Assembly: GCA_965208105.1 (NCBI GenBank)
Contig: OZ242318.1
Coordinates: 2,016,001-2,080,000 of the forward strand
Direction: 5' to 3'
DNA length: 64,000 nt
Origin: Candidatus Latescibacterota bacterium
GTDB lineage: Bacteria > Latescibacterota > UBA2968 > UBA8231
This document shows positions 18,057-45,080 of the stretch, one piece after another. The notes under the pieces were generated by a model that worked only from the letters and a program-made list of their open reading frames with translations, was not told where the DNA came from and ran no database searches. The first letter of the stretch is position 1. Each line of letters begins with the position of its first letter. Both the position numbers and the translations under genes were made by a program.

Positions 18057-18138
18057 CGCCTTGTTCTCGCCGTGCCCGAACCGCGAATGCGGTTGCGCGA
18101 AGGGCATAGCCCGAAGCCGGGCACGGACGTGTTATAGG
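18057..18138 (-). repeat. attC-like site 22 (AAC core deleted)
   Basis: cgccttgttctcgccgtgcccg...gttatagg. Confidence 0.82.
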
Positions 18139-18181
18139 AAATGCCAGCTGGTGCGCCGAAGTAATTCTCAGAGGATTAAGC

Positions 18182-18754
18182 CTAACTCCTAATCTGGATT
18201 TCCCAGTTCGATCTGGCCATAACATAGATCGCGCCCTCCCACCACTTATCAGACCGGAGTAGGCACTTCTCCCTGATTTCGGCCAGCCTGAATCCAAGAC
18301 GTTCAGGTATTGCCCGACTTGCCTGGTTGACAGTCGCAGCGCAGACCGTCACTGTGCCCAAACGTAGCTCCGTAAATGCGATATCAAGTAGTGACTTGCA
18401 GCACTTGGTTATGATCCCCTTTCCTCTGTAGGATTTAAAGAGCCAGTAGCCAAGGTCCCCAGTATCTCCGACTTTGATTCCAGAAATCCGACATGTTCCA
18501 GCGACTTTCCCTCCTAGTTCGACCGCCCCTCCGAGCCGGGTGGAGGTCTTCAGGGCTTCGTTCACACGATAAATCTCCGCATGGAGGTCCGCAATGTTTT
18601 CCATCGTGTTGATCGAATGAATCCAAAATAAGTCATCTTTCTCATTTTCGATCAGGTGATATAACTTGGCAACATCAGTCTTGGAATAGGGCCTGATGCA
18701 CAGCCCATCCTCGACTTGAATGGTTTGCGTGCAATCGTATGTAGTCGCGGCCAT
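18182..18754 (-). CDS. RimJ/RimL-family GNAT acetyltransferase, cassette
   Basis: LGYWLFKSYRGKGIIT, NQASRAIPERLGF. Confidence 0.9.
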   Translation of the reverse strand: MAATTYDCTQTIQVEDGLCIRPYSKTDVAKLYHLIENEKDDLFWIHSINTMENIADLHAEIYRVNEALKTSTRLGGAVELGGKVAGTCRISGIKVGDTGDLGYWLFKSYRGKGIITKCCKSLLDIAFTELRLGTVTVCAATVNQASRAIPERLGFRLAEIREKCLLRSDKWWEGAIYVMARSNWEIQIRS

Positions 18755-18810
18755 GAGATCCCCTCAGTCAGGAGGTTTTAAAAGATCGCATATGTCCAAA
18801 ATTTGGCTTT

Positions 18811-18894
18811 CCTATAACGTTTTTTGGCTACCCGACCTGCTCAGCAGGTCCCGAAGGGCCGGGCGAAGCCCGAGCGGGTAGACGATGTTAGGCG
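18811..18894 (-). repeat. attC-like site 23
   Basis: cctataac...ctacccg/cgggtag...gttaggcg. Confidence 0.83.
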
Positions 18895-18944
18895 ACGTGA
18901 GATTTTACTTTCATAAACCACAGTGATCAAAGACCTCTCAAAAT

Positions 18945-19676
18945 CTATTCATAAAACTGAAGAAATACAGATAGCGGCGCTTCCAAGGCCAGAATGGGGC
19001 AGGGGAAGGCACGTTGCAGGTCCGAAAAGGCCTCTACCTCAGGTGCGTTTATCGAATGCAGAAATTGATCGACTAGGTCGCGCTTTACTTCGCCTTCATG
19101 ATTAAGGAATTGCCCCCAGTTACCATAATACTTCAGTTCCTTCAAGGGCGCCGATGTCGCCGTGTCCAAGTAGGACGGTGGGAAAAGCCGGCGGTAGGCC
19201 TCAATGCTGTAGAGCCAGGAACATCCAACCACTGTACGAGCATTCGGCACTTGCTTGCTGATGTGATCAATGAGGGCGTCCAACTCCGACTTGCGGACCG
19301 AGGATCGGACTATCGACAGCGGCCCATGTCCTGACGTGTCGCTGTTGCGAAAGTGCAGGCGTATTCTGCCACCGTCCCGCACCTCATAGCGGAAACAGCC
19401 AAATGTGGGCTCGTCCGAGGAGGTATTGGACGAATCTCTCTCCCGATTTTTGAGATATATCTCATAGATGCACGCAAGCGGGTCGGCCGCCGTCTCGATG
19501 GTTTTGCAATAATCGGTCCAGCGTCCCTCATCTTTCGAGTCTTATTCGGCAATCCCCAGACGCAGCGGAATGTTGGTCCACTCCTTTAGGACCGTGGCTA
19601 TAGGCCCGTGTATAATCCGGGCGACTACTAGACCGAAAGCGTAGTTCACCTCAAAGTATTCGATTGGTAGTGCCAT
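18945..19676 (-). pseudogene. Hypothetical protein with in-frame TAA (19542-19544)
   Basis: ATG 19676 (MALPIEYFEVNYAFG...) is in frame with track ORF 18945..19382, with one stop between. Confidence 0.7.
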
Positions 19677-19794
19677 CTGCTATTTCTGTTTTTCAGGAAG
19701 TCAGAAAAAATGGCGATTCGGTGTCTCACTTCAATTCACACCTTACCTTCATTTCACCAGATCCCCTCAAAGAAATCCACCGCTTTTTTCATGT

Positions 19795-19886
19795 TGCCAA
19801 ACGTTATGCCGGTTGCCGAACTCGCGAAGCGAGTTGCCGTAGGCCAGGGAGCACCTGCGCCGAAGCGGCAAACATGCTGTTAGCCG
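19795..19886 (-). repeat. attC-like site 24
   Basis: tgccaaac...ttgccg/cggcaa...gttagccg. Confidence 0.8.
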
Positions 19887-19915
19887 ACGTTGGTCGACTC
19901 TTCCTTGAAATGGCC

Positions 19916-20596
19916 TCAAGAAGACATACCCTCGAGGTGATCAAATAGATCGTCGATGCAGTCGACCGAAGCCAGCTTAGGGGCAGTCTCCCATGCAATG
20001 TCCCGAGATGCATACCATTTGGCTTGCACCGGCCGCATGCCCACAGCCGCAGCACCTTGCAATTCATCAAACCCACCGTCGCCCACAAAAACGCCCTCTT
20101 TTGGTCTGAATTGGAGGCGCTCGCACGCTAGATGATATATCTCGGCTTCGGGCTTCATGGTATTCACTTGGCACGAGAAAACATGATCATCGACAACATC
20201 CCGCAGGGGGCACTCTGGCCAACAGACGATCTCGTCAGGTGTCGCATTACTCAGGATTCCGACCCGCCAACCGCTAGCCCGAAGCCGTGACAGCAAGCGT
20301 ATCGTCTTGGGCTCGACCTCAAGCAAATAGTCTCGCTTACGTGACTCCCTATCCTTGCTGAGTTCATCTAAGGTTGCGGCATCCACTGAAGTGCATAGTG
20401 CCTCGCACAACGCTGATAAGGTTTCCCTATACGATGCAAACTTGCCGGTCATTCGGTCTCTGCTGCTAGTTCGCCACCATGCCCTGACGTCTTCCAACTC
20501 CAAACCGAGCCGATCAGCAAACGACTGCTGCGTCGGACGATCCGGATACTGCTGTGTTACGAGCGTTTCGAAGAGATCGAATAGAGCCGCTTTCAC
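19916..20596 (-). CDS. HAD-superfamily hydrolase, cassette
   Basis: FDLFETL, LSN, KPEAEIY, FVGD motifs. Confidence 0.9.
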   Translation of the reverse strand: MKAALFDLFETLVTQQYPDRPTQQSFADRLGLELEDVRAWWRTSSRDRMTGKFASYRETLSALCEALCTSVDAATLDELSKDRESRKRDYLLEVEPKTIRLLSRLRASGWRVGILSNATPDEIVCWPECPLRDVVDDHVFSCQVNTMKPEAEIYHLACERLQFRPKEGVFVGDGGFDELQGAAAVGMRPVQAKWYASRDIAWETAPKLASVDCIDDLFDHLEGMSS

Positions 20597-20653
20597 AAGG
20601 TCTCTAATTCACATGGCTGGAGCCATCAAATCGAGGGTCTCCCAACCCAATGT

Positions 20654-20752
20654 CGGCTAACGTTCCGCCGGTTTGCGAAGCCCGAGCTTGTCGAGGGGTT
20701 GCCGAAGGCCGGGCGCCAAAGGCGCCGCAGCGCAACACCGCGCTGTTACCTG
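20654..20752 (-). repeat. attC-like site 25
   Basis: cggctaac...gttacctg. Confidence 0.87.
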
Positions 20753-20773
20753 AAAGTGGAACACGAATCCGAA

Positions 20774-21307
20774 CTATCCATCTGCAGTGTCTTTTGTCAA
20801 GTAAACGTAAAGTTCCTCGTCGCGTTGAGGCTGGCCATCTGCATCATAGTACGTGTAACCTGAAAGAAATTCTCCGTATCCAGCATCTTGGTAACCAAGT
20901 CTCCTATATAGTTCACGTGCCACATCCTGGCTTGGATTGTGTGCTGTGACCTCAAGACCGACGAGTTTCACGCCCCTGTTTCGAACAAGGTTTTCAGCCG
21001 ACTCCATTAGCAATCTGCCAAACCCCTTTCCGCGAGCGTCTTCCGAAACCGTGAGGTCGCCAATCTCCGCACAGCCAAGTTCACCTGCCTGATATGTCCG
21101 GTCGCAGCGCCCACCCGGCCATCGTACAAGGACGTATCCAATTGGAATGCAATCATCCCACGCAACAAGGAAGGATAGCTCACCGGACCTCTGCCATCCG
21201 AAATACTTGATATGACGATTGCCAGGTGTACCAGGTTTCTCAGGAAAAGCCGCGACTAAGTGAGGTATGTCGGCTTCTTCTGCAACTCGAACCATTGACG
21301 TTTTCAT
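20774..21307 (-). CDS. GNAT acetyltransferase, cassette
   Basis: DLTVSEDARGKGFGRLLM, ARELYRRLGY. Confidence 0.9.
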   Translation of the reverse strand: MKTSMVRVAEEADIPHLVAAFPEKPGTPGNRHIKYFGWQRSGELSFLVAWDDCIPIGYVLVRWPGGRCDRTYQAGELGCAEIGDLTVSEDARGKGFGRLLMESAENLVRNRGVKLVGLEVTAHNPSQDVARELYRRLGYQDAGYGEFLSGYTYYDADGQPQRDEELYVYLTKDTADG

Positions 21308-21313
21308 CCATTT

Positions 21314-21398
21314 CAGGTAACGATATCGCCGTGCCCGAACCGCGAATGCGGTTGCGTAAAGGGCGTAACCCCGAAGCCGGGCACGGACGTGTTAGCCG
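21314..21398 (-). repeat. attC-like site 26
   Basis: caggtaac...gttagccg; interior identical to site 38. Confidence 0.9.
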
Positions 21399-22084
21399 TT
21401 GGGCCCCGCTTTAGAGGACAACCATTGAGCCAGAATCTCGGCGACACTGCTCATTGCCATCTGAAGATTTGTCTTGAAATCATCAGGTGCGGATTCGTCG
21501 GCATCGTCCGTGACTCCTCTCATCTCAAGGTACGGGACTTCGCTGAACCTGCACGCGCGCGCCCCGCCGGCGCCCTCCCAGGCGACAACCAGAGCTTGAG
21601 TCCGCTCACGAACCTGCACTCTCCGACTGGGTTCGACGATGTCCTCATCACCGCTTGCGATTACACCGAAGTGGACTTCGTGGCCCTCCACAGCCGCCGG
21701 CATCCCACGCAAACTCTGGAGCGCTGTCGGATCACCCTCGAATGAGGGCACCGGACTGTCGTTGAACCTGTTGATGTAATCGTGCTCAACCGTTCGGGTG
21801 CCGACCACCACATCCCCGACGCGCAGTCCATCCGCCAGCCCCCCAGCGGCACCTGTGCAAATCACGAGGTCCCAACCTGATCCCGCATCCAGAAGATGCT
21901 GCAGCTGAACTCCGAACTGAGCCTTGCCTGTGCCACCCACCGCAAGAGTGAGTCCGAGGTCGGGGAACTGGGTGACAGGCAGCCGCCCTATGGTCTTAGC
22001 TCGTTGATCATGCCCGGCCGCCACGAGATCGTCGCGAATGGCTTCCAGCTCTTCTAGCATTGGTGCTACAGCGGCCACTTGCAT
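21392..22084 (-). CDS. MTA/SAH nucleosidase (PNP_UDP_1) family protein, cassette copy 1
   Basis: PMLEEL, GGTGKA, TGAAGG, GDVVVG, IASGD, RGVTD. Confidence 0.88.
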   Translation of the reverse strand: MQVAAVAPMLEELEAIRDDLVAAGHDQRAKTIGRLPVTQFPDLGLTLAVGGTGKAQFGVQLQHLLDAGSGWDLVICTGAAGGLADGLRVGDVVVGTRTVEHDYINRFNDSPVPSFEGDPTALQSLRGMPAAVEGHEVHFGVIASGDEDIVEPSRRVQVRERTQALVVAWEGAGGARACRFSEVPYLEMRGVTDDADESAPDDFKTNLQMAMSSVAEILAQWLSSKAGPNG

Positions 22085-22132
22085 CTAATTCACATCCCAA
22101 GTGTCCCTTTGTGCTTCCCTTAGGGGGCCTTA

Positions 22133-22216
22133 CGGCTAAAGTTTTCGTGCCCCCGAGCCGCGCTGGGGTTGGGCGAAAGGCCGAATGGCCTGAAGCCGGG
22201 GGCAGGGTGTTATAGG
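22133..22216 (-). repeat. attC-like site 27 (core TAAC>TAAA)
   Basis: cggctaaa...gttatagg; paralogous to site 34. Confidence 0.83.
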
Positions 22217-22250
22217 CCGTGACAGCCTGCAAACAATCAATTAGGAGCGG

Positions 22251-23051
22251 CTATAGCACCTGTATTTTCGATGCAAATCTCTGAAATCGATCAAGTGTTA
22301 TATTCGCCCAACCGACAACAGTCTCAGAGGGTTGCTCAGTTTGCAATTCATTTAGCGCAGAGACTTCGAAATATGAACCATAGATAGCGCCGCAGATATA
22401 ATAATCGCGCACGGGATCTGTAGACTCAACCGAAAGCCTACCCATGTAGGATTCGATCAGCGATTCTATGTTCAAAAGTTTTGGATACGGCGTAACTTGC
22501 GCTCCGGTCCGGAGGACCAGATCGGCAAACGGAGAACTCAACCAGGATAGGCCCAAGTCGAACGCGACGATCTTCTTGCCTAACATGCCTAGATTGGAAT
22601 TGGCCGGATCACCATGCGAGACGCAGGTGCACCGGCTTGCAACCATTTTCTGAAACTCACGGAATATGTACGAGGCAGAGGGTAAGGCACCGAAGTCACT
22701 GCGATAAAGCCGCGAATTAGGGTCCCCCGCTTCGGCAACGAGCTGCGACATGACCGTCCAGTATGATGAAAAGTAGCCAAGATTGCACGGCGGATACTCT
22801 ACCACGCTAACAGAATTGAACTCCACGACCCAATGGAGAACGCGTTCGAAACCAGCTATTTCGGACGTGTCAAACGGCAAGGGCGCGGCCTTTTCCAGGA
22901 CTATCTTCCGCCTACAGCCGTCTTCAATCACGTCAAGCAACTGCACAACGGGCGCACCCGCATCGTTGAGGGCTTTATACTTCTCGACCTCTGAAAACCC
23001 GGGTCTCTCTGGCTTGATCACGTAGGTGCCACAGTCTTGAACCTGAGACAT
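22251..23051 (-). CDS. APH-like phosphotransferase, cassette copy 1
   Basis: VSHGDPANSN, IVAFDLG...PFADL. Confidence 0.7.
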   Translation of the reverse strand: MSQVQDCGTYVIKPERPGFSEVEKYKALNDAGAPVVQLLDVIEDGCRRKIVLEKAAPLPFDTSEIAGFERVLHWVVEFNSVSVVEYPPCNLGYFSSYWTVMSQLVAEAGDPNSRLYRSDFGALPSASYIFREFQKMVASRCTCVSHGDPANSNLGMLGKKIVAFDLGLSWLSSPFADLVLRTGAQVTPYPKLLNIESLIESYMGRLSVESTDPVRDYYICGAIYGSYFEVSALNELQTEQPSETVVGWANITLDRFQRFASKIQVL

Positions 23052-23086
23052 TTGATCGGCTTAGTACACAGCGTCATCTGGTATGG

Positions 23087-23170
23087 CCTATAACGTTTCC
23101 GTGCCCCCGAACCGCGCAGCGGTTGGGCGAAGGGTCGAACGGCCCGGAGCCGGGGGCACGGTGTTATAGG
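23087..23170 (-). repeat. attC-like site 28
   Basis: cctataac...gtgcccccg/cgggggcac...gttatagg. Confidence 0.9.
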
Positions 23171-23215
23171 ATGTGCCAGCCGAGCTTGGAGTACACACGG
23201 CTCTGAGTTCCACCA

Positions 23216-24181
23216 TCACGCTTCAACCGCTTCCGCGATAAAATGGGTGTATGCGTCGCGGTAATCAGGCTGCCATTCTGTCAGATCTGATCCCCATTGA
23301 CGAGCAGCCATCCAACCAAGAGCAATCTTCCCTGCAGTAACCAAGTCGGGCCCTTCAAGGCTTCTAAGTCCTGCCTCGCTGCGCTTGACGGCCATTCTGT
23401 GAATGAGATCTCGATGCCCCGGCCGACCGCTCTCGCCCGAATTGAGAACCTGAAGATAAGCTGGATCCAGAATCCAGGACTGACGCTTTGGGTGAATATC
23501 AATTAGAACCACACGCTCTCCATCCGGAGGCGGATCTCTCACCAAGCCGTTGCAGAGGTGGAAGTCATCGAAGCAAATGTCAGATCCGCACTTCTCTAGG
23601 AGAAAGCGCCAATGGAGGTCGACTTTTTGTAGAAGTTTATCAACGGATCCCGGAGGGTTCCGGTCAATCGATCCCTGAAGCCAACGGGAAACTTCCATCG
23701 GAGTTGTCTCATTCAAACTGGGGTCTTGTATTTTTTCTGCCTGTTGGTAGAAGCGAATTCCCGCGTCAAGCAGCAATTCGAACTCCCTGCCGTTCCAGGC
23801 ACTCCCCAAAGGTCCAAATGGAATGGCTTCCAAAGCGAGCCAATGCACATCAATTCTTCCCAGCCGAGATCCTGAAGCGTAGACCTTGGGCACTAGGTCA
23901 GGTGCAAAGCGATTGAGTTCATTACACCAGAAATTTTCTCGTGTACTGGTACCAACTTTGATAATCACTACGAGGCCTGTCTTTCGATGTAGACCTCGGA
24001 GATGAACAGCGACCATTCCATACTCTTGAAGGAAAGGCTGGATATCGCTAGCGATCGCAGTGATTGCTTCTGTTTGGTTGGCGGCTTTGAGAATCTCACC
24101 CAAGACCGCGCCTGATCGGGATACCCGGCCGTCGCCTTCAAAGATTTTCACGTCTGCACTCCTCTTGGATCTGGCTGGCAT
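23216..24181 (-). CDS. Hypothetical kinase-like (APH-fold?) protein, cassette
   Basis: VIIKVG, VPKVYASG, WLALE, FDDFHLCN, VLID; start uncertain. Confidence 0.55.
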   Translation of the reverse strand: MPARSKRSADVKIFEGDGRVSRSGAVLGEILKAANQTEAITAIASDIQPFLQEYGMVAVHLRGLHRKTGLVVIIKVGTSTRENFWCNELNRFAPDLVPKVYASGSRLGRIDVHWLALEAIPFGPLGSAWNGREFELLLDAGIRFYQQAEKIQDPSLNETTPMEVSRWLQGSIDRNPPGSVDKLLQKVDLHWRFLLEKCGSDICFDDFHLCNGLVRDPPPDGERVVLIDIHPKRQSWILDPAYLQVLNSGESGRPGHRDLIHRMAVKRSEAGLRSLEGPDLVTAGKIALGWMAARQWGSDLTEWQPDYRDAYTHFIAEAVEA

Positions 24182-24183
24182 TT

Positions 24184-24276
24184 CCTATAACGTTACGCCG
24201 ATTGCCGAACCTGCGAAGCAGGTTGCCAGATGCCAAGGCGCGACGAGCGCCGCAGGGGAAAACGAGTTGTTATGCG
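24184..24276 (-). repeat. attC-like site 29
   Basis: cctataac...gttatgcg. Confidence 0.82.
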
Positions 24277-24287
24277 ATCGGCACTCG

Positions 24288-25373
24288 TCAAGAAGATCGA
24301 AATGGTCCTCCATATCTGACCAAAACGTGCCACAAGTATTTCAGGAGTCCGCGCACTTTCCGAGGATCACCCCAGTTGCTCCACTCAGAAGGATTTCTCC
24401 CCAGGTCCATTGCCGCAGATCCAATCACTCTTGGATCCACGCGGCCATCAATGGCCACGTGTGTGGCAAATGGCGGCATCACGGGACCCCTGAAATCGCT
24501 TGGCACCTCATCAGCTGGCAACGTGAAACCCATGTGCCAGAAACAATCGATGGAATACTCGGAACACACTTCCTCGAGAACTTCGCCGATATGTGTATTC
24601 TTGAAAGAAGGATCAACAACCATTATGTCGGCATCGGTGCGCAGACAAACGTCACCGTGAACCTGTGCCTCGATGTAGTGATTCAAATTGCGGTTGGCCT
24701 CTCGTCCAGATGGATCCTTGAAAGGTTGCTCAAGTTCAGTGAATAGATGCTCGACAAGCCTCCCAGTAGTCAGGTTCCGTTCACCTATCGCAAAATCGCT
24801 GAAGAACGCGTCTTTCATCATGGCGGCAAGTATGCCGTCGAAAGCCTTGTACGTACCATTGGAGCCCGAGTGCGATGAATCCAAGTACGTAAACGTCGTC
24901 CGAGTTGAGACCTCCGGTTTTAAGAGCAGAAAGCAGCATCCAAACCGAGGTGAAGGTCCGTCAGGATGCAACATTAGATCGAGCGCCCCGTACTTGGGCC
25001 GTTCCTCGTCGGAGGTTTCGTTATTGTGATACGCACCACCGAAGAGCCTATCTTCCCACCTGTCGCGCTCACCACCGGAATAAGCAGTTTCGCCACCGCT
25101 CGACATTTTGGTCACGAACTGGTTTCGATAGATTCCCTGTTCTAGCAACGCCTGGGCTACTGGTTTCAGGTCTGGATCTGGTCTGTCCGGATGGAAGTGC
25201 AACCCGACTCGGGCGTGAGACTTGAGCTTGGCGACAGTCTGGTCGAATCGTTCCGGGGCAATATCCGATTGGTAAAGGATGTCGGACAGCCATTTCAGCG
25301 CCCAGTCTCTTTGCTCTCGCCCACAGTGGGTGAAATGATCTAGAGCGGCTAATTGCGATTTTGTCAGATTCAT
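24288..25373 (-). CDS. DUF3626-family protein, cassette
   Basis: LHFHPDR, YRNQF.T..S.G, ERPKYGALD, SPRFG, YIEAQVHG. Confidence 0.8.
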   Translation of the reverse strand: MNLTKSQLAALDHFTHCGREQRDWALKWLSDILYQSDIAPERFDQTVAKLKSHARVGLHFHPDRPDPDLKPVAQALLEQGIYRNQFVTKMSSGGETAYSGGERDRWEDRLFGGAYHNNETSDEERPKYGALDLMLHPDGPSPRFGCCFLLLKPEVSTRTTFTYLDSSHSGSNGTYKAFDGILAAMMKDAFFSDFAIGERNLTTGRLVEHLFTELEQPFKDPSGREANRNLNHYIEAQVHGDVCLRTDADIMVVDPSFKNTHIGEVLEEVCSEYSIDCFWHMGFTLPADEVPSDFRGPVMPPFATHVAIDGRVDPRVIGSAAMDLGRNPSEWSNWGDPRKVRGLLKYLWHVLVRYGGPFRSS

Positions 25374-25413
25374 AGAACAATCGGTGCGGGCACTATTCAG
25401 ACTTGAACTTACC

Positions 25414-26573: not shown

Positions 26574-26582
26574 GTGCCCGTT

Positions 26583-26666: not shown

Positions 26667-26711
26667 ACGTGCGATTCACTGCGTAGTCCACCAGGAACTT
26701 CGAGCGTGCGT

Positions 26712-36771: not shown

Positions 36772-36773
36772 TT

Positions 36774-36866: not shown

Positions 36867-36906
36867 GCGTGAATCTCTGCTTCAGATTGAGCGCTATTTT
36901 CCTTAC

Positions 36907-37215: not shown

Positions 37216-37269
37216 CTCGCTTCCGATCTCACGACTCGGCATGGGCCGCCATGCCTGATGGTTGCAAAT

Positions 37270-37328
37270 GGATAACGTCGCGGATCAGGCGCGGCTACTC
37301 GCCGTCGCCTGCATCCGGCTGGTTCGGC
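37270..37328 (-). repeat. Classical 59-bp attC (59-base element), unrelated to the array's own site family
   Basis: Minus strand: GCCGAAC cagcc GGATGCAGGCG ... CGCGCCTGATCC gcgac GTTATCC; extra base in L''. Confidence 0.8.
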
Positions 37329-38764: not shown

Positions 38765-38802
38765 AATGCATTATAATAACACCAATTCGTTTTTTCTCAT
38801 GC

Positions 38803-38901
38803 CGTATAACGTTGTGCCGGTTTGCGAACGCCGAGCTTGTTGAGGCGTTGCCGAAGGCCAAGCCGCCGTAGGCGGCGAAGCGGAAACAGGTGTGTTAGAT
38901 G
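38803..38901 (-). repeat. attC-like site 43
   Basis: cgtataac...gttagatg. Confidence 0.85.
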
Positions 38902-38949
38902 AAGTGGGATTCAAACCAATGCCAAATCTGCATAGAAAACATCTTGAGA

Positions 38950-39594
38950 TCAGTCGCCGGTGCCTTGTCCGGTCAGTTGCGTCGTTTGGTTCAACGGCTT
39001 TCTCGCCACGGCCTTGTTGATTGGGTGCGTGTGCCGAATACTACCCGGATGCTCATCCTCAATGGTGTAGCTCTCTTCTAATTCGATGTCCCAATCCTCA
39101 TAGAGTGAGAACAATTTGCCTTCTTGGAACAGTCCGAGGCAGTGCGCTTCCAGATCCGCTGGCGGAGGAATCCTGTCAGTGAAAACGACAACGACGTTCG
39201 TGCCGCCCGGAATTGTATGAGACTTGAATTCCGAGACTAACTTCATCCATTGTTTTCGAGCGATCAGATGCAGACACCCGTGCGAGACAATGAGGTCGAA
39301 CTTGCCAGAGAATGAATACTGACGCATATCAGCGACATCGGCGCGTATGCTGATTCCATCACGGTCCGCCAGCATTTGCAACTTCCGGATGCCTGACTCC
39401 GAAATATCGACTGCCGTAACATCAAACCCCTGCTTCGCAAGGAAGAGTGCATTCCGTCCTTCTCCGCAACCTAAGTCCAAAACTTTTGCTCCCTGCACCA
39501 TCTGATTTGCAAGTTCTAGGATCTCAGCACTCGGATCGCCAAATGTCTTAGCCTCAAGATCCGCGTACCCTTTGGTCCATGGAAAATCAATCAT
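38950..39594 (-). CDS. TehB-like SAM methyltransferase, cassette
   Basis: VLDLGCGEGRNALFLAKQGFDVTAVDIS; start taken as ATG 39594. Confidence 0.87.
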   Translation of the reverse strand: MIDFPWTKGYADLEAKTFGDPSAEILELANQMVQGAKVLDLGCGEGRNALFLAKQGFDVTAVDISESGIRKLQMLADRDGISIRADVADMRQYSFSGKFDLIVSHGCLHLIARKQWMKLVSEFKSHTIPGGTNVVVVFTDRIPPPADLEAHCLGLFQEGKLFSLYEDWDIELEESYTIEDEHPGSIRHTHPINKAVARKPLNQTTQLTGQGTGD

Positions 39595-39702
39595 CGAATT
39601 CACTGGCTGTCGAACTTGCGCTTGAGTGGCGACTATGAAAGTATATCTCCAGAAAAATATTGGGAGATACACTGCAAGGCCCCGACTATACTTTTCCCAT
39701 TT

Positions 39703-39786
39703 CATCTAACGTTCTCGCCGTGCCCGAACCGCGAAGCGGTTGCGCGAAGGGCGAAAGCACGAAGCCGGGCACGGACGTGTTACCTG
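39703..39786 (-). repeat. attC-like site 44
   Basis: catctaac...gttacctg. Confidence 0.9.
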
Positions 39787-39831
39787 CCGTGGCCATCCTG
39801 CACGAATGAAAAATTCCTCGTAGCAGCCGAT

Positions 39832-40629
39832 TCACACCTCTGGCTTAAAGCCTACGGCGCGACACCACGCAAAGGCCGCATAGGCATCGGGAGATACCGA
39901 CCACTCCTCCCAGGCTTCGGTTATTGCTTTCAACTCGTCATCTGTAGCAAGTCCGTGTTCTTGCGCGTTCTGAACAAAGGCTCCGTCCTGGAAGTAGTGC
40001 ACTTGTCTGCTCCCAAACGTCTTCACTTTGTCCTCAGTTCCATAGCAGAGATATTTGGAAGTGGCAGTCACATCATTAAAACTCGCGCCATTCAATAGAC
40101 CGCGAAGTTCGCGGCCGCAATATGGACCGCCGGTGCCTTTCAGAGTCCAGAGCTGCTCTCGAATTGAATAGCTGCGTCGAAGTAAGGACGAACGTGGTCC
40201 GCTGACGATGAAACCACCGTATTCCACGTCTGCGATTCCTAATACCCCACCGGGTTTGAGGACGCGCTTCACCTCCAGGAGTGCGTCTTGTGGGCGATCC
40301 AGGGTCTCGGCCACCGAGTGGCAGAGGCAGGCATCGAAGCTATTGTCTGCGAAATCGAGTTTGTAAACATCACCGACGCAAAAATCAATGTTTCCAATCG
40401 CGTGGACGCGAGCATACGTTTCAGCATCTCCGAAACCATCATCGCTAAGATCAACACCGACTACGCTACGCACCTTCTCGGCCACACCCAAAGCAATGCT
40501 TCCGCCACCGCATCCTACGTCCAGGACTTTGAACTCTGGTGCCAAGTGTGGAAACAGGAACTCGGCATAATCGTCCGCGTTCCGGCCGGCCATGTAGTCT
40601 TCAAAGCTCATGCCAAAGGTGTCTTCCAA
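39832..40629 (-). CDS. UbiE-like SAM methyltransferase, cassette copy 2 (diverged)
   Basis: Paralogue of 27682..28479 with several substitutions. Confidence 0.9.
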   Translation of the reverse strand: MEDTFGMSFEDYMAGRNADDYAEFLFPHLAPEFKVLDVGCGGGSIALGVAEKVRSVVGVDLSDDGFGDAETYARVHAIGNIDFCVGDVYKLDFADNSFDACLCHSVAETLDRPQDALLEVKRVLKPGGVLGIADVEYGGFIVSGPRSSLLRRSYSIREQLWTLKGTGGPYCGRELRGLLNGASFNDVTATSKYLCYGTEDKVKTFGSRQVHYFQDGAFVQNAQEHGLATDDELKAITEAWEEWSVSPDAYAAFAWCRAVGFKPEV

Positions 40630-40644
40630 TGCGGAAAGCCATGG

Positions 40645-40804
40645 CAGGTAACGTTCTTAAGTGGCCGAACTGGCAAAGCCACAACTCATCCTAACCGCTG
40701 TGCCGCTCGGGCAGCCACTACTCCTTCCCAACGTCCGCACGTTAGGGCCAGTTGGGACGGAGGCCGCCGCAGGGCGGCCGCAGCCGGCCACTGTGTGTTA
40801 TGCG
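40645..40804 (-). repeat. attC-like site 45 (160 bp, expanded inner arm)
   Basis: caggtaac...agtggccg/cggccact...gttatgcg; aactggc/gccagtt encloses cctaac...gttagg. Confidence 0.8.
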
Positions 40805-40856
40805 AAGGTGCCCCCCGAGGCTACCCGCACCGCGTTCCACTACCCTCACAATGCTG

Positions 40857-41450
40857 TCATGTCGAGGTCCTCAATAGATGACGAACGGGCTCGTCAGACC
40901 ACAGCTGCACCTCAATGAACCGCTCCACAGGTGTCCCCCAGTAGTTGTCGTATTCAACTCGAGGCATTCCGTACTCCCCGATCACGGCCTCAAGTTCATC
41001 GATGAGGTACACGCGATCGTGATACGGTCTCGCCTCCTGGCGCGGGATTCCGAAATCCGCCCCGAAACCCATGGCCTCGAAACTGTCAGAATAGGTGAAG
41101 CTAGTGACGGGTGACGGGAGGTCGTTCAGAGCGACCACGACTTCCTTGGTGTCGGGAGCGAGCTGCTTGAACCACTCGGATCTACCCAGGACAAAGTAGT
41201 GTGGAGCGCTCCGCTCGGGCCGTCCGCCCCGGGCGACGAAGAGGCCTCGGAGCCGTTCCTCCGTCAGCCGTCGCATTTCAATATACTTGCGGCCGAACGG
41301 CCGCTTGTGATCACGGACTCGTCGGAGTTCCTGAAGCCCCTGCCGCACACCCTCAAGGTCTGTCTCAGCGAGGTCTGACAGGTTCAGAAACGGATGTCTG
41401 TCGGACAGGTGATAGTGCGTTACGAATTCTGGAATCTTCAATCGCGCCAT
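40857..41450 (-). CDS. Hypothetical protein, cassette
   Basis: 197-aa ORF filling the cassette (PFLNLSDL, PHYFVLG, IEVQLWSD). Confidence 0.75.
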   Translation of the reverse strand: MARLKIPEFVTHYHLSDRHPFLNLSDLAETDLEGVRQGLQELRRVRDHKRPFGRKYIEMRRLTEERLRGLFVARGGRPERSAPHYFVLGRSEWFKQLAPDTKEVVVALNDLPSPVTSFTYSDSFEAMGFGADFGIPRQEARPYHDRVYLIDELEAVIGEYGMPRVEYDNYWGTPVERFIEVQLWSDEPVRHLLRTST

Positions 41451-41500
41451 CTCCGACTACCGCTAGGACCCCTCCCTTCCAAATACGTTCCTGGCACTTT

Positions 41501-41592
41501 TGCATAACGTTCTGCCGGTTTGCGAACCCGCGCAGCGGGTTGCCGAAGGCCAAGGCGCGTCTGCGCCGCAGCGAAAACCGATGTGTTATCTG
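41501..41592 (-). repeat. attC-like site 46
   Basis: tgcataac...gttatctg. Confidence 0.87.
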
Positions 41593-41634
41593 ACATGCAA
41601 TTCGGTGAGCTCCAAGTCGAATAGATGCATTCCT

Positions 41635-42084
41635 CTATACGAACTCCTGAGCACGTACAGTGAATGGTGAAGTTGTATATGACTGAAACAAAACCCGCCC
41701 ATCAAATGACAGAAGCTGCCGAAGCCTTCGGCTGTAGCCAGGGTGATCTATCATCTTATCGGCATCTGTCTTCTGAACCCACGAAACATCAAGAGTCTCC
41801 TCTCCAATCCGGGCGTCGCCAGACAACCAAGATCCAAGGAAATCGAAAATAACTCGACGCTCACTAAGGTTGGTATACACCCCAACAAGTCGATTAGCCG
41901 AGGCCAGGATGTTGGCCTCTTCTCTGACTTCACGGATGACCCCATCGAGGATGGACTCACCTTCCTCTATTTGGCCACCTGGAAACTCCCACCCCCTTCG
42001 TGGGGTTTTAACCAGAAGGACATCGTCTCCTCGTTCCACGAGAATTCCAGCAGCGACGATATGTTTCGGTGGGTTCGGATGCAT
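41635..42084 (-). CDS. NUDIX hydrolase, cassette
   Basis: WEFPGGQIEEGESILDGVIREVREEA Nudix box. Confidence 0.92.
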   Translation of the reverse strand: MHPNPPKHIVAAGILVERGDDVLLVKTPRRGWEFPGGQIEEGESILDGVIREVREEANILASANRLVGVYTNLSERRVIFDFLGSWLSGDARIGEETLDVSWVQKTDADKMIDHPGYSRRLRQLLSFDGRVLFQSYTTSPFTVRAQEFV

Positions 42085-42174
42085 TTGTTGCCTTCAGGAT
42101 GACCTTAAATTCCGGTCGATTCGGAATATCCAACCGGACGGGGATGGTAAGATAGTAGCCAAAAAAATGCATGT

Positions 42175-42259
42175 CAGATAACGTTCTCGCCGTGCCCGAA
42201 CCGCGAATGCGGTTGCGCGAAGGGCGAATGCCCGAAGCCGGGCACGGACGTGTTATAGG
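42175..42259 (-). repeat. attC-like site 47
   Basis: cagataac...gttatagg. Confidence 0.9.
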
Positions 42260-42302
42260 ATGTGCCAGATTGGGTGGAGGGGAAAGACATTCCACCAGCA
42301 CA

Positions 42303-42799
42303 TTATGTCCAATATTTTCGGCAGATAAAGGCCAATTCATAGAGAGCCGCGAAATCCTGGTCGTCAGCGGAAAACAGATCTGTTGCCTTATCGTACTCGA
42401 TAGTCCGCACTTCAGTGATCGAACCTCCCGCACATGAATGGGGTGGGGGAAATGAGGTAGCCTGGGCTGGGCCTCTTGTGAAACGCAATGGTACATCCCG
42501 ATCGGTTTGACGTGGCTCAAAGCTGCGCCCGTTTCCTCCATCATTTCCCGATGTGCAGCCTGCAACTAGCTCTCCCCAGGTTCCAGCGTCCCGCCAGGCA
42601 ACACCCACCTGCCATTCTCGCGACGGGTCACGAGGCACTCAGTCGCCGAGACAAATGGAATTACATAGGACGAGCCGCAACACGAATCTACGACTTCGCG
42701 ATCGAAATTGACGAAATCAATGCCCTGCCTCCCGCGATCCCGCAATGCTGGAAGATCTCGGACAAATCTGTCGAAATCTGAGTCATCCAGAGATTTCAC
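42303..42799 (-). pseudogene. NUDIX hydrolase pseudogene (TAG in the Nudix box plus downstream frameshift)
   Basis: LPGGTLEPGES*LQAAHREMMEETG; C-terminus in another frame. Confidence 0.8.
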
Positions 42800-42821
42800 A
42801 GCACTTCCCTATCTGGCATTT

Positions 42822-42911
42822 CCTATAACGTTCCCGCGGGCTGCGAACCCGTGCAGCGGGTTTTCTGCGAAGGCGCGAATGCGCCGAAGCCGTAGCCCGT
42901 CGTGTTAGCCG
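42822..42911 (-). repeat. attC-like site 48
   Basis: cctataac...cgggctgcg/cgtagcccg...gttagccg. Confidence 0.88.
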
Positions 42912-42962
42912 TGTGTGCAGCCCGCACTGGCCTTGCCAGGACGGCAAGGCCTCTTGATTTGC

Positions 42963-43514
42963 TTAGGCATCCGTGGGACCAGGCGACCAGCCGATCGATT
43001 GGGCCCAACCGTCCGCACGGGACATGATTTCCCAGATTATTGGATTTTTTGAATCGGTGTACCTCTTCCTGTCCTCTCGGTACTTCATAGCCAACTCCCG
43101 TTTAACCTTCTCGTAACGTTTCTGCTCTTCCAAGTGTTCTCGGAGATAGTCACGAAACAACAAGGCGAACTGCTCAGACCAGCTGCCAGCCTTGCGGACG
43201 TGGATATGTGTTCGTCTCTTCCCTGGCAGTTCTCGAAAATACCGCTTTGTCCTTTCAGGGTTGTCCTTCCGCCAGATGTAGCCAATTTGCTCCAGCGGAA
43301 CTCGAAACGGATCAACGGGGTCGAGTTCCTTCACTGAAATCTGCACATCAATGATGGGCTTGGCTGCCAGACCTGCGATTGAGGTAGATCCAATATGGTC
43401 AATCCGGATCGCCACGTTCCCAAGAGCTTCCTTCATCCTGATCCCGAGCTCGCGGAAGAGCATTGGCCACTCATCCGAGTAGTCCTTGATCTCAATCACG
43501 TAAGGTGTCGTCAT
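42963..43514 (-). CDS. GrpB (UPF0157) family protein, cassette
   Basis: IDHIGSTSIAGLAAKPIIDVQ, RTHIHVR, LFRDYLR. Confidence 0.9.
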   Translation of the reverse strand: MTTPYVIEIKDYSDEWPMLFRELGIRMKEALGNVAIRIDHIGSTSIAGLAAKPIIDVQISVKELDPVDPFRVPLEQIGYIWRKDNPERTKRYFRELPGKRRTHIHVRKAGSWSEQFALLFRDYLREHLEEQKRYEKVKRELAMKYREDRKRYTDSKNPIIWEIMSRADGWAQSIGWSPGPTDA

Positions 43515-43583
43515 TGATCGACTGCTCAGTTCATGGATTTGGCGGCGCAGGAGGCGCCGCCGCATTCTTTGCGGGCTGCATTA

Positions 43584-43688
43584 CGGCTAACGTTCTCGCG
43601 GGCTGCGAACCTGCCGCAGGCAGGTTTCCTGCGAAGGCCGAATGGCCGGAGCCGCAGCCCGCCGCAGCGTAAACCGCTGTGTTATCGG
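43584..43688 (-). repeat. attC-like site 49
   Basis: cggctaac...gttatcgg. Confidence 0.83.
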
Positions 43689-43712
43689 AAGGTCAATACA
43701 TCCCTCGCGTGC

Positions 43713-44489
43713 CTACTTGACCGCCAAAAGGTTGATCCTGCGGAAGGTTTCGAAACACGTGCCATCCGTTTGACGCGTCTCCTCAACCATTCGTTTTGTT
43801 ACAACCTCGTGAAATCGACTCCCTGTTTCAGAATCGAGGTACTGCTTGAATGGTATCACTGCCGGATGGTCAACCCAACCTAACATTGTCTGCGTATCGG
43901 GGAAGAATCGATCAGCGTTCTCTCCCCATACCCGCAGACTCGAAAAGGATGAGTTTCCTACGAGCTTCTCGTATGCTTCCACTGAAGGCATGTACCAAGG
44001 CCATTCGAAATCTGAAAAAGCTCCGGAAAATTCCTCGCTGGCCATTACCTCCAAGGCTACACGATTGAACGTGCCGCAGTTCCCCTCACCTGCAAAATTA
44101 ACCCTAACTACGCCAGAGCGTTTGAGAGCACGACAAAAGATCTCGAGGAGCATCTGGTGGTCCTTGATCCAGTGCAAAGTGGCATTGGAGAATATCACAT
44201 CGAACTCGTCCTGAAATTCTGCGTCGAGAATATCGATCAGTCGGAACGAAAGATTGGCTCGGTGGATATTCTGTGCCGCCTCGATCATTCCTTCAGAGGT
44301 GTCGATTCCAACAACTGAACCGGCGGAAACTGCGTCAGCGAGATTCGCGGTGAGGGTGCCGTCGCCGCAACCTACATCCAGAATGCACTCGTTGCCGGCG
44401 AGATCAAGTTCGTCGATCAATCGCGCTCCCCATTCTTTCTGGTGAGCGGACGTCTCCTGGTAGCGCTTTCCGTCGAAATCTACTCTCAA
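43713..44489 (-). CDS. Trans-aconitate methyltransferase-like SAM methyltransferase, cassette
   Basis: ILDVGCGDG, FDVIFSNATLHWI; start taken as TTG 44489 (the track ORF runs into the attC). Confidence 0.87.
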   Translation of the reverse strand: MRVDFDGKRYQETSAHQKEWGARLIDELDLAGNECILDVGCGDGTLTANLADAVSAGSVVGIDTSEGMIEAAQNIHRANLSFRLIDILDAEFQDEFDVIFSNATLHWIKDHQMLLEIFCRALKRSGVVRVNFAGEGNCGTFNRVALEVMASEEFSGAFSDFEWPWYMPSVEAYEKLVGNSSFSSLRVWGENADRFFPDTQTMLGWVDHPAVIPFKQYLDSETGSRFHEVVTKRMVEETRQTDGTCFETFRRINLLAVK

Positions 44490-44503
44490 CTCACTTTGAC
44501 TTT

Positions 44504-44601
44504 CCGATAACGTTCCGCCGGTTTGCGAACGCCGAGCTTGACGAAGGGTTGCCGAAGGCCAAGGCGCGACAGCGCCGCAGCGCAAACCGTGCTGTTAGAT
44601 G
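44504..44601 (-). repeat. attC-like site 50 (first cassette)
   Basis: ccgataac...cggtttgcg/cgcaaaccg...gttagatg. Confidence 0.9.
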
Positions 44602-44624
44602 AAGCTCTCTCAGAAGTCAGATCT

Positions 44625-44990
44625 TTACGCGTCAATGGCTTCACGTGTAACGGATGGTTCGAAAAAACGCTCCTGGAACTCCGTCAAAGCCAGGATCTGC
44701 TCGTCTGAGTAGTCTCTACCGGCAGGTACGACAATGAGCTTATCATCATCGTCGTCCGATCGTTGAATGACGGCGATACATCTGCCTGTAAAAGCCTCTA
44801 TCGGTTTGAAGACACCCAGGATATAGGCGTCCATATTTTCTCCGTCAGGCGCCGGAACGTCCGGAAGAAATCCGTAGTTGACAGGATAGATGAAGCCCGC
44901 TTCAGGATGCCTGGAGCCAAGGGGTCGATCAATCGTAAGATCGACCATTTCTCCGATGAACTTCCTCGCATCCACGAAATTCCCCGCCAT
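44625..44990 (-). CDS. Short inorganic pyrophosphatase-family protein, first cassette
   Basis: IDRPLGSRHP, YPVNYGF, DGENMDAY, DDDDKLIV. Confidence 0.87.
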   Translation of the reverse strand: MAGNFVDARKFIGEMVDLTIDRPLGSRHPEAGFIYPVNYGFLPDVPAPDGENMDAYILGVFKPIEAFTGRCIAVIQRSDDDDDKLIVVPAGRDYSDEQILALTEFQERFFEPSVTREAIDA

Positions 44991-45038
44991 GGTCGTTTAA
45001 TCTCCCAGCCATGTTGAAGTGAGGCAACGCTGCTCCGA

Positions 45039-45080
45039 GTTTCATCTAACTGCCTGTATGCGAACCATTGGTTCGTATAA
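45039..45080 (-). other. attI-like primary recombination site
   Basis: tttcatctaac complements the far end of the first cassette (gttagatgaa 44594) and has no partner attC arm; arm-6 bp-arm GTTTCATCTAA-CTGCCT-GTATGCGAACC plus an extra arm GGTTCGTATAA. Confidence 0.75.

What the first reader, a model, noticed from the sequence alone, without database searches (positions are those of the whole stretch)
18131..45050. Cassettes have 12-20 bp terminal inverted repeats with a recurring G/A asymmetry at position 11
Seen (left end vs reverse complement of right end): gttatctgacGtgcgat/gttatctgacAtgcgat (26659/27557); gttagccgacGttgg/..Attgg (19879/20661); gttagatgaaGtggga/..Atggga (38894/39710); gttatcggaaGgtcaa/..Agtcaa (43681/44511); gttacctgccGtggc/..Atggc (27630/28502); gttacatgaaGtg/..Atg (28581/29293); gttagatgaaGctc/..Actc (44594/45050). 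Classical attC complementarity is about the 7-bp R box. Inference: in an excised circle the stem would extend well into the cassette, with a G.T wobble on the bottom strand and an A.C mismatch on the top strand. This could be a second strand or orientation signal, or a footprint of how cassettes are made.
Basis: partly seen in the sequence, partly recalled or inferred. Interest (0 to 1): 0.8.

Follow-up and report, generated by a model that had tools for sequence, protein, structure and literature searches.

The report
Integron cassette ends with wobble pair
The gene cassettes of this large chromosomal integron carry matching inverted ends of about 16 bases, longer than usual, with one fixed G-versus-A difference that lets only one DNA strand pair fully, which may tell the recombinase which strand to cut.

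Summary
The window holds a chromosomal integron array of about 49 attC sites (199-44602). Cassettes are coded on the minus strand, and a broken integrase gene lies at 45252-46190.

In 65 non-redundant cassettes of this genome, the two ends of the same cassette match far beyond the R box. At positions 9-10 and 12-17 they match at 326 of 520 places, against 175 for shuffled pairings (0 of 10,000 shuffles reach it). The match fades at about position 17.

Position 11 is G on the R'' side and A on the R' side in 46 of 65, and never the reverse. Seven related genomes show the same.

The premise is partly wrong. Pairing to 9-11 nt is already in print (Bouvier 2009), and 106 cassettes beside canonical IntI genes match to about 12 nt. 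They show no pairing beyond that and no position-11 bias.

The new points are the 16-17 nt arm and the fixed G·T (bottom strand) / A·C (top strand) pair. Both go with an integrase that lacks the IntI-specific domain.

The A is not a start-codon effect: it starts the long ORF in 2 of 45 cassettes.

My best reading is an extended recombinase-binding arm with a strand-asymmetric wobble. That function is inferred, not shown.

The parts
199..44602 (+). Array of about 49 attC sites. The plus strand reads as the bottom strand: ..TAAC-core-GTTA... The array runs off the left end of the window.
   Evidence: Sequence model R1 search, printed sites, whole-genome nhmmer.
18131..45050 (-). Stretch named in the finding: 27 consecutive cassettes, coded on the minus strand. 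Each is bounded by GTTA... on the left and ...TAAC on the right.
   Evidence: Cassette table; ORF orientation.
26659..26675 (+). R'' arm of one cassette (GTTATCTGAC-G-TGCGAT), with G at position 11 (26669).
27541..27557 (+). R' arm of the same cassette. It is the reverse complement of the R'' arm except for T at position 11 (27547), which pairs with G as a wobble.
   Evidence: modelled circle junction folds as an 18-bp outer stem.
26590..26659 (+). attC core belonging to cassette 26659-27557, from the C of AAC to the G of GTT.
   Evidence: Duplicated cassettes show that the core to the window-left travels with the cassette.
38894..39710 (-). Cassette with a 16-nt terminal inverted repeat and G/A at position 11.
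43681..44511 (-). Cassette with a 16-nt terminal inverted repeat and G/A at position 11.
44594..45050 (-). First cassette of the array, next to the presumed attI junction at 45050. It has a 14-nt inverted repeat with G/A at position 11.
45051..45251 (.). Presumed attI and promoter region between the first cassette and the integrase gene. It holds a palindrome around 45060-45085.
   Evidence: Read from the sequence; function not tested.
45252..46190 (+). Tyrosine recombinase related to integron integrases. It has an in-frame TAA at 45423-45425 and lacks the roughly 41-residue IntI-specific insertion.
   Evidence: Intact relatives of 293-314 aa are listed.
25503..26563 (+). IS630-like transposase in two ORFs (HTH plus DDE_3), inserted in cassette 24269-26590.

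Best explanation
The inverted ends are the outer part of the attC recombination site. In the linear array the crossover at G|TT splits the site, so its R' arm sits at the start of the cassette and its R'' arm plus core sit at the end. In the excised circle the two arms of the same cassette come together again. There they form a stem of about 16-17 bp on the folded bottom strand.

Positions 2-12 are the recombinase-binding arm, about as long as the 11-bp arms of Xer sites. In canonical integrons the pairing stops there.

In this lineage the stem goes on for another 4-5 bp. It encloses a fixed imperfection at position 11: T on the cleaved 5' arm opposite G on the 3' arm. A G·T wobble is the one pair that holds on one strand while its complement, A·C, does not. 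So the bottom strand keeps an intact arm with T at position 11, and the top strand gets a mismatched arm with C there. I propose that this biases binding or cleavage towards the bottom strand and so fixes cassette orientation.

Shown: the anatomy, the cognate specificity, the covariation, the conservation across genera, the contrast with canonical arrays, and the link with an integrase that lacks the IntI-specific domain.
Inferred: that the arm is bound over 11-12 bp, and that the wobble acts in strand choice.
For: 1. Cognate-only pairing at positions 9-10 and 12-17: 326 of 520 against 174.6 for shuffled pairings, 0 of 10,000 shuffles. The arms flanking one attC in the array match only at background (12-17: 86 of 258), while the cognate arms match at 161 of 258.

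2. True covariation. Among 126 non-redundant cassettes from 8 genomes there are 110 different hexamers at positions 12-17, and all four bases occur at matched positions.

3. Position 11 is fixed while its neighbours vary. The R'' side has G in 110 of 126 and the R' side has A in 115 of 126. G/A occurs in 32 of 41 cassettes here and 38 of 42 in relatives, with 0 A/G.

4. The same pattern is seen in arrays of G001, G008, G010, G014, G016, G021 and G040, which span several genera and a second family.

5. Among 106 cassettes beside canonical IntI genes, pairing ends at about 12. It ends at exactly 12 in 8 of 11 cassettes of locus L031 and 3 of 4 of L040. There is no bias at position 11.

6. The modelled bottom-strand circle site folds better than the array site in 39 of 43 cases (mean -7.2 kcal/mol). 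It folds better than the top-strand circle site in 40 of 43 (mean -3.1).

7. Duplicated cassettes share sequence from the AAC of the attC on the window-left through to the TAA on the right. So the units moved with the standard crossover.

8. The neighbouring integrase lacks the insertion that canonical IntI has. Escudero et al. 2020 (PMC7790495, abstract only) tie that region (the I2 helix) to single-strand recombination. From recall, it is the part that recognises the extrahelical bases.
Against: No experiment shows that this recombinase acts on these sites, and here its gene carries a stop codon.

The attC cores have other strand-asymmetric features: a longer spacer on the 5' arm, and a single-base bulge on the 3' arm in some predicted folds. 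The wobble may therefore be redundant or irrelevant for strand choice.

Apart from position 11 there is no excess of bottom-strand wobbles over top-strand ones at positions 9-17. By my tally of the table the counts are 29 and 31.

The energy difference attributable to the arms alone is small (mean -1.1 kcal/mol) and depends on the model.

The G/A could be a frozen trait of the founder site.

Pairs of similar arms occur on six cassettes with unrelated interiors. So some of the pairing is inherited as a pair rather than restored by selection.

The 11-bp arm comparison with Xer sites is from recall and was not tested here.
Confidence: 0.5

Rival explanations
1. Historical footprint without function. 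The arms are complementary because of how cassettes are born, for example a gene caught between two copies of the same attC, or a fold-back copying step. The G/A at position 11 is then a frozen feature of the founder attC of this lineage.
For: The asymmetry is a consensus trait, not a pair-specific one. Six cassettes with unrelated interiors share nearly the same pair of arms, GTTATAGG..TGCCAG (blastn and tblastx found no similarity between interiors). The outer arms are nearly random in sequence (110 hexamers in 126 cassettes), as expected if they are made anew for each cassette.
Against: A single G-to-A or A-to-G transition would perfect the pair. Yet only 5 of 65 cassettes are A/A and none is A/G, while the flanking positions have diverged completely across at least 8 genomes. 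A birth process that copies one arm from the other should give a perfect pair at position 11 as well. Match rates fall off smoothly from position 12 to 17, which looks like a selection gradient or decay rather than a fixed copy length.
Confidence: 0.25
2. Ordinary R-box extension only. The finding is the known 9-11 nt self-pairing of cassette ends, with nothing specific to this array.
For: Bouvier et al. 2009 state that pairing extends to 9-11 nt for most cassettes (PMC2727003, Introduction passage). Ghaly et al. [quoted passage not shown] Canonical arrays here pair to 9-13 nt.
Against: At positions 13-16, cassettes of this genome match at 0.78, 0.80, 0.66 and 0.59, and relatives at 0.93, 0.79, 0.64 and 0.45. 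The canonical set matches at 0.29, 0.22, 0.19 and 0.29. The G/A count at position 11 is 32 of 41 and 38 of 42, against 5 of 106.
Confidence: 0.12
3. Translation signal. The A at position 11 is the A of a start codon placed at a fixed distance from the crossover. The G on the other arm avoids an antisense ATG.
For: ATG is the commonest triplet at positions 11-13 of the cassette start (53 of 126), and GTG is commonest on the other arm (49 of 126). Two cassettes (23163-24191 and 36355-36781) start their long ORF exactly there.
Against: In the window 21 of 45 cassettes have ATG at position 11, but only 2 of 45 read from it into the long ORF. The others hit a stop after 1-54 codons. A is present in 115 of 126 cassettes and ATG in only 53. 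GTG is itself a start codon, so the G does not remove an antisense start.
Confidence: 0.08
4. RNA-level structure. The two ends pair in the cassette transcript, or in an antisense transcript.
For: Only that complementarity exists. On an antisense RNA position 11 would be a G·U pair.
Against: On the sense RNA position 11 is an A·C mismatch. The arms lie 450-2300 nt apart in the linear array, and the arms that are adjacent there are non-cognate. Expression was not examined.
Confidence: 0.05

Closest known systems
Classical attC (59-base element) sites of integron cassettes, whose R''/R' boxes self-pair over 9-11 nt
   Same: AAC/GTT boxes and a crossover consistent with G|TT. The R' arm is carried at the cassette start and is cognate to the R'' arm of the same cassette. 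The site is an imperfect hairpin with an inner stem and a variable tip. Cassettes hold a single ORF, all in one orientation.
   Different: The arms pair to about 16-17 nt rather than 9-12. G at position 8 is invariant. There is a fixed G·T / A·C pair at position 11. The spacer between the R box and the inner stem is asymmetric, typically 7 nt against 4 nt, and the predicted folds show no clear pair of extrahelical bases.
Strand selection in canonical integrons by extrahelical bases, the unpaired central spacer and the variable terminal structure (Bouvier 2009; Nivina 2016)
   Same: The idea that the bottom strand is chosen through features that differ between the two folded strands.
   Different: Here the candidate feature is a wobble pair inside the outer R arm. 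It is not a bulged base near the L box, and the integrase lacks the domain that is said to read those bases (recalled). Searches of the paper library for attC with wobble, and for attC with mismatch and R box, gave no paper describing it.
[quoted passage not shown] 2016, PMC4889954)
   Same: By the IntI-specific-domain criterion this array would probably be filed as a CALIN. The genome also holds further attC clusters away from any integrase.
   Different: A related recombinase sits at the array end in the integron position here and in G001, G010 and G016. Homologues lie near arrays in G040, G014 and G008. So the array is probably not orphaned.
Xer recombinase sites (dif) with 11-bp binding arms
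   Same: Recalled, not tested: arms of 11 bp counted from the cleavage point, with the inner TTA(T)/(A)TAA bases conserved and the outer bases variable. Pairing in canonical arrays stops at position 12, which is 11 bp from the crossover.
   Different: dif is double-stranded and has no hairpin. No Xer site was analysed here.

Membership tests
Integron cassette array with attC sites | Sites bounded by conserved AAC and GTT triplets, with the crossover at G|TT defining the cassette unit | tested here: met
   59 of the sites in this genome have intact AAC and GTT. Duplicated cassettes share sequence from the AAC of the attC on the window-left through to the TAA on the right.
Integron cassette array with attC sites | Imperfect palindrome: inner L''/L' stem, spacer and variable tip, folding as a hairpin | tested here: met
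   Stems of 8-11 bp found by pattern search. DNA folds of 8 sites have z-scores from -0.5 to -4.5.
Integron cassette array with attC sites | Two extrahelical bases on the bottom-strand L'' arm, about 6 bp apart | tested here: inconclusive
   Predicted folds show a single-base bulge on the 3' arm in some sites and a 4-nt bulge on the 5' arm. No canonical pair of bulges is seen. These are predicted folds only.
Integron cassette array with attC sites | Promoterless cassettes with one ORF each, all in one orientation, next to an attI and a divergent integrase gene | tested here: met
   The longest ORF is on the minus strand in 44 of 45 cassettes. The recombinase gene lies on the plus strand, 200 bp from the first cassette. 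attI itself was not tested.
Integron cassette array with attC sites | The ends of one cassette are complementary over the R box (7 nt, commonly 9-11 nt) | tested here: met
   Match of 0.88-0.93 at positions 5-7, continuing to about position 17.
Integron integrase IntI (NCBIfam TIGR02249) | Score above the curated cut-off of 265 bits | tested here: not met
   210.8 bits for the 250-aa ORF. No match over the cut-off anywhere in the genome.
Integron integrase IntI (NCBIfam TIGR02249) | IntI-specific additional domain between the conserved patches | tested here: not met
   Profile positions 180-234 are unmatched. Residues 179-238 of the solved Vibrio integrase correspond to only 18 residues here. 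The alignment with IntI1 shows gaps of 31 and 10 residues. The same holds for relatives in G001, G010, G016 and G040.
Integron integrase IntI (NCBIfam TIGR02249) | Tyrosine-recombinase catalytic core and closest kinship to IntI | tested here: met
   The best solved relative is the Vibrio integron integrase (E 3.9e-47). The HTLRHSFAT and LGH..TTEIYTHV motifs are present. In a quick tree the short forms are sister to 26 canonical IntI, not nested among them (quick search, three long-branched outgroups).

The most novel reading that the evidence does not exclude
These arrays belong to a separate integron lineage. It is run by a short tyrosine recombinase, sister to IntI, that never had (or has lost) the domain reading extrahelical bases. 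In this lineage strand and orientation choice is written into a 16-17 bp R arm by a fixed G·T wobble. That pair holds on the bottom strand and is an A·C mismatch on the top strand. It would be a second, simpler solution to single-strand site recognition, and a possible view of how integron recombination arose from Xer-like enzymes.
Probability: 0.25. Interest if true: 0.85.

Novelty: new variant of a known kind. Interest (0 to 1): 0.6.

Why it matters
How an integron integrase picks the bottom strand, and how cassettes are born, are open questions. This lineage offers a natural variant with three linked traits:
- the recombinase lacks the domain held to be needed for single-strand recombination;
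- the site has a longer outer stem;
- a single fixed wobble makes that stem strand-specific.

That makes strand choice testable with point mutants at one base pair.

The cognate 16-17 nt ends also have practical uses. They give a check on cassette boundaries and integrity. They suggest that attC finders which stop at the 7-nt boxes discard usable signal. And they show that some arrays called orphan (CALIN) may have a non-canonical integrase next door.

If the arms prove to be a birth mark, they constrain models of cassette genesis, because the unit attached to a gene would include sequence on both of its sides.

Tried and rejected
- Finding attC sites by unconstrained folding of every AAC..GTT span gave 4 hits, only 2 of them (4875-4964, 19800-19891) overlapping attC sites of the later map, because the R boxes are not paired in the minimum-energy fold.
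- A simple stem pattern found about 60% of the sites, with false hits.
- The RNAalifold consensus of 26 sites had no base pair, so model R1 is sequence-only. It was still adequate for mapping.
- A constrained-fold scan alone placed exact boundaries for only about 19 of 44 sites. I replaced it with a detector that also requires a perfect match at positions 1-7. That detector recovers 27 of 33 such cassettes in the window, with 5-6 false long-range pairs, which I then removed with a nearest-partner rule. Because it demands a perfect 1-7 match and may still admit false pairs, the canonical match rates at positions 8-12 are probably underestimates.
- A CpG-deamination origin of the T at position 11 is rejected. 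The G/A occurs with C, A or T at position 10 (38, 29 and 24 of 126).
- A general bias towards bottom-strand wobbles is rejected (my tally of the table: 29 against 31 at positions 9-17, position 11 excluded).
- In class 1 cassettes of one plasmid (pHH128), the dfrA1 ends match over 7 nt, the catB2 ends over 8 nt, and an unnamed cassette over about 18 nt with one bulge. Three cassettes are too few to count.
- The careful tree search did not finish, so only the quick tree is reported.
- Supplementary files of the papers were not seen. Tables of attC alignments there might already show outer-arm pairing.
- Expression and excision were not examined; no sequencing-run search was made.

Full report
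**What is there.** The window holds a large chromosomal integron array. A sequence model built from 26 hand-picked sites finds about 49 attC sites on the plus strand between 199 and 44602. On the plus strand each site reads ..TAAC-core-GTTA... The longest ORF is on the minus strand in 44 of 45 cassettes, so the minus strand is the top strand and the plus strand is the bottom strand. The first cassette ends at 45050, and a recombinase gene follows at 45252-46190 on the plus strand. The window is G000:C1:2016001-2080000. The genome carries further attC clusters near 1.04, 1.08, 2.74 and 4.61 Mb (82 nhmmer hits in all). Cassette genes are typical cargo: GNAT acetyltransferases, a phosphorylase, DUF3626 and a methyltransferase. 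One cassette holds an IS630-like insertion.

**Check of the observation.** All seven quoted pairs are present as written. I use these terms: L is the 30 nt from the G of GTT at a cassette's left end, and R' is the reverse complement of the 30 nt ending at the C of AAC at its right end. In 41 non-redundant cassettes (45, less 3 duplicates and one 58-nt unit), own-end match rates exceed other-end rates at positions 5-7, 9, 10 and 12-16. They fall to background by position 20.

Genome-wide there are 70 cassettes, 65 after removing 5 duplicates. Positions 9-10 plus 12-17 match at 326 of 520 places, against a shuffled mean of 174.6 (sd 10.5), and 0 of 10,000 shuffles reach the observed value. Shuffling only within groups that share the R-box triplet gives 264 against 186.9, again 0 of 10,000. 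Positions 18-23 and 24-30 are at background.

Position 11 is G in L and A in R' in 46 of 65 cassettes, and never the reverse. R' has A in 60 of 65 and L has G in 49 of 65. Position 10 shows a second bias: L has T opposite an A in R' in 19 of 65. The position-11 asymmetry belongs to the two consensus sequences, so non-cognate pairs show it as well.

**The pattern is not peculiar to this genome.** Model R1 finds the same attC family in 21 of 41 related genomes. I fetched arrays from seven of them. They give 95 cassette intervals with the same long inverted ends and the same G/A. Some of the longer intervals lack R-box complementarity and probably span a missed site.

I then pooled 160 intervals and kept those with at least 6 of 7 matches in the R box, removing near-copies. 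That leaves 126 cassettes. G is at L11 in 110 and A at R'11 in 115, and G at position 8 is nearly invariant. Own-end match is 0.84, 0.79, 0.74, 0.62, 0.54 and 0.42 at positions 12-17. The outer arms are very diverse: 110 different hexamers at positions 12-17, with all four bases used at matched positions. Cassettes that share an inner arm have different outer arms, each matched to its own partner. This is covariation, not a shared motif.

**Is it routine?** Partly.
- Bouvier et al. 2009 write that for most cassettes self-pairing extends beyond the 7-nt boxes to 9-11 consecutive nt (PMC2727003, Introduction passage seen).
- Ghaly et al. [quoted passage not shown]
- Nivina et al. 2016 and 2020 define the R box as 7 nt. 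The passages I saw mention no outer pairing or wobble.
- Library searches for attC with wobble, and for attC with mismatch and R box, gave no paper describing such a pair.

For a direct comparison I fetched 80 loci encoding full-length relatives of IntI1 from many phyla. I searched them with a detector that needs an attC-like constrained fold on both sides and a perfect match at positions 1-7. In the window this detector recovers 27 of 33 such cassettes. It found 113 cassettes in 30 loci, of which 106 are non-redundant. Their match rates at positions 8-13 are 0.73, 0.71, 0.51, 0.44, 0.43 and 0.29, then background. Position 11 shows 5 G/A and 5 A/G.

Some canonical arrays stop sharply at 12, for example 8 of 11 cassettes in an Aquabacterium locus and 3 of 4 in an Acidobacteriota locus. 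Under the same condition, this genome (41 of 65 cassettes) matches at 0.85, 0.78, 0.80, 0.66 and 0.59 at positions 12-16, and relatives (42 of 95) at 0.88, 0.93, 0.79, 0.64 and 0.45. G/A at position 11 is seen in 32 of 41 and 38 of 42.

So pairing to about 12 is ordinary. Pairing to 16-17 and the fixed G/A are specific to this attC family among those examined.

**What the ends are.** Duplicated cassettes map the mobile unit. Two copies of the same cassette share sequence from the AAC of the attC on their window-left side, through the cassette, to the TAA of the box on their right, and they diverge outside. One cassette is present both here and in the 2.74-Mb cluster. The unit is therefore R' arm, gene, R'' arm, core, as in classical integrons, and it has moved.

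In the array, the two arms that flank one core come from different cassettes and match only at background (positions 12-17: 86 of 258). The arms of one cassette match at 161 of 258. Modelling the circle junction gives a predicted bottom-strand fold of -32.4 kcal/mol, against -25.2 for the same core in the array (better in 39 of 43 sites). The top-strand circle gives -29.2, so the bottom strand is better in 40 of 43. The arms alone differ by -1.1 kcal/mol between the strands. The long stem therefore exists only in the excised cassette and is somewhat stronger on the bottom strand.

**Start codons.** ATG is the commonest triplet at positions 11-13 of the cassette start (53 of 126), and GTG is commonest on the other arm (49 of 126). 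In the window 21 of 45 cassettes have ATG there, but only 2 of 45 read from it into the long ORF. The others stop after 1-54 codons. The conserved A is therefore not explained by gene starts. A short leader ORF is not excluded.

**The recombinase.** The gene at 45252-46190 has an in-frame TAA at 45423-45425. It scores 210.8 bits against the integron-integrase family, below the cut-off of 265. Profile positions 180-234 are unmatched. Against the solved Vibrio integrase, 60 residues correspond to 18 here. Against IntI1 there are gaps of 31 and 10 residues. On plasmids the IntI1 match spans 810 nt for 228 query residues.

Close relatives of 293-314 aa are intact and equally short. The same short gene lies at the same end of the array in G010 and G016 and in G001. 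A homologue lies 2 kb beyond the array in G040, there on the opposite strand. Homologues also lie within a few kb of attC hits in G014 and G008. Two genomes without attC hits have only matches of about 40% identity. G021 also has a canonical IntI elsewhere.

In a quick tree the short forms, together with a wider family of similar recombinases, are sister to 26 canonical IntI (supports 95 and 99). This tree comes from a quick search with three long-branched outgroups and midpoint rooting, so it is a lead and not a result. By the domain criterion the array would probably be called a CALIN (Cury et al. 2016, passages).

**How it most likely works.** Counting from the crossover, positions 2-12 make an 11-bp arm. 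That is the length at which canonical arrays stop pairing, and, from recall, the length of a Xer binding arm. I take this to be the recombinase-binding arm.

In this lineage the stem continues for 4-5 bp. The imperfection at positions 10-11 is thus held inside a helix and not left at a frayed end. On the bottom strand the cleaved 5' arm has T at position 11 and the 3' arm has G. On the top strand the arm that could be cleaved has C, opposite A. This T-versus-C difference is the only consistent difference between the proper and the improper arm. Established knowledge, recalled here, is that G·T is the least disruptive DNA mismatch and A·C among the most disruptive. A wobble is therefore the minimal way to keep one strand paired while spoiling the other.

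I propose that it contributes to bottom-strand choice, and hence to cassette orientation, in a system whose integrase lacks the domain tied to single-strand recombination (Escudero et al. 2020, abstract only). That step is inference.

Several observations count against it:
- The cores have other asymmetries.
- There is no general excess of bottom-strand wobbles (my tally of the table).
- The arm-only energy gap is small.
- The integrase gene here is broken.

**The birth-mark reading stays open.** Six cassettes with unrelated interiors carry nearly the same pair of arms, so arms can be inherited as a pair with the site. Against a purely historical reading, position 11 has stayed G/A while its neighbours diverged completely, although one transition would perfect the pair. 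Only 5 of 65 cassettes are A/A.

**Verdict.** The basic extension of pairing is already known. The 16-17 nt arm with a fixed strand-asymmetric pair, tied to a short integrase, is a new variant of a known kind, and it deserves a mutational test.

Noticed in passing
45252-46190 (+); stop at 45423-45425: The integrase-like gene beside the array lacks the roughly 41-residue IntI-specific insertion and carries an in-frame TAA. Equally short homologues sit beside attC arrays in G001, G010, G016, G040, G014 and G008. The copy in G014 has a stop codon, the copy in G030 a stop codon and a probable frameshift, and the copy in G010 a probable frameshift. In a quick tree they are sister to canonical IntI.
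   Followed up: partly
every attC site, e.g. 26591 and 26658: A second bottom-strand G/T juxtaposition lies just inside the R box: G after AAC and T before GTT. It is seen in 56 of 59 sites here, in 85 of 91 in relatives, and also in 25 of 59 sites of canonical arrays.
   Followed up: partly
position 10 of cassette ends, e.g. 23172 and 24182: At position 10 the cassette-start arm never has T or G on the top strand (A 71, C 54 of 126). The other arm often has T, which gives T·T on the bottom strand and A·A on the top strand in 24 of 126 cassettes.
   Followed up: partly
8610, 18131, 22209, 23163, 31033, 42252 and their right ends: Six cassettes with no detectable similarity in their interiors share nearly the same pair of arms, GTTATAGG..TG(C/A)CAG. 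This hints that both arms travel with the attC site when new cassettes form.
   Followed up: partly
24269-26590; ORFs 25503-26039 and 26054-26563 (+): An IS630-like transposase (HTH domains plus DDE_3), split into two ORFs, is inserted in the cassette that carries a DUF3626 gene.
   Followed up: partly
4832-4889: Two attC sites lie only 58 nt apart, which looks like an empty or collapsed cassette. Several sites at the left of the window (945-1003, 3038-3092, 4091-4136) are partial.
   Followed up: no
40652-40797: One attC is 146 nt long, with about 70 extra bases in its middle compared with its neighbours.
   Followed up: no
G000:C1 near 1.037-1.046, 1.076-1.080, 2.738-2.751 and 4.606-4.612 Mb: There are further clusters of the same attC family away from the integrase gene. 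One cassette (window 18131-18818) is duplicated in the 2.74-Mb cluster at 98.5% identity.
   Followed up: partly
28581-29293: This cassette has two small tandem ORFs on the minus strand. The layout suggests a toxin-antitoxin pair, which would be common in chromosomal integrons, but the one ORF tested had no Pfam match.
   Followed up: no
45051-45100: A palindrome (CGAACCATTGGTTCG) lies in the presumed attI region just beyond the first cassette.
   Followed up: no
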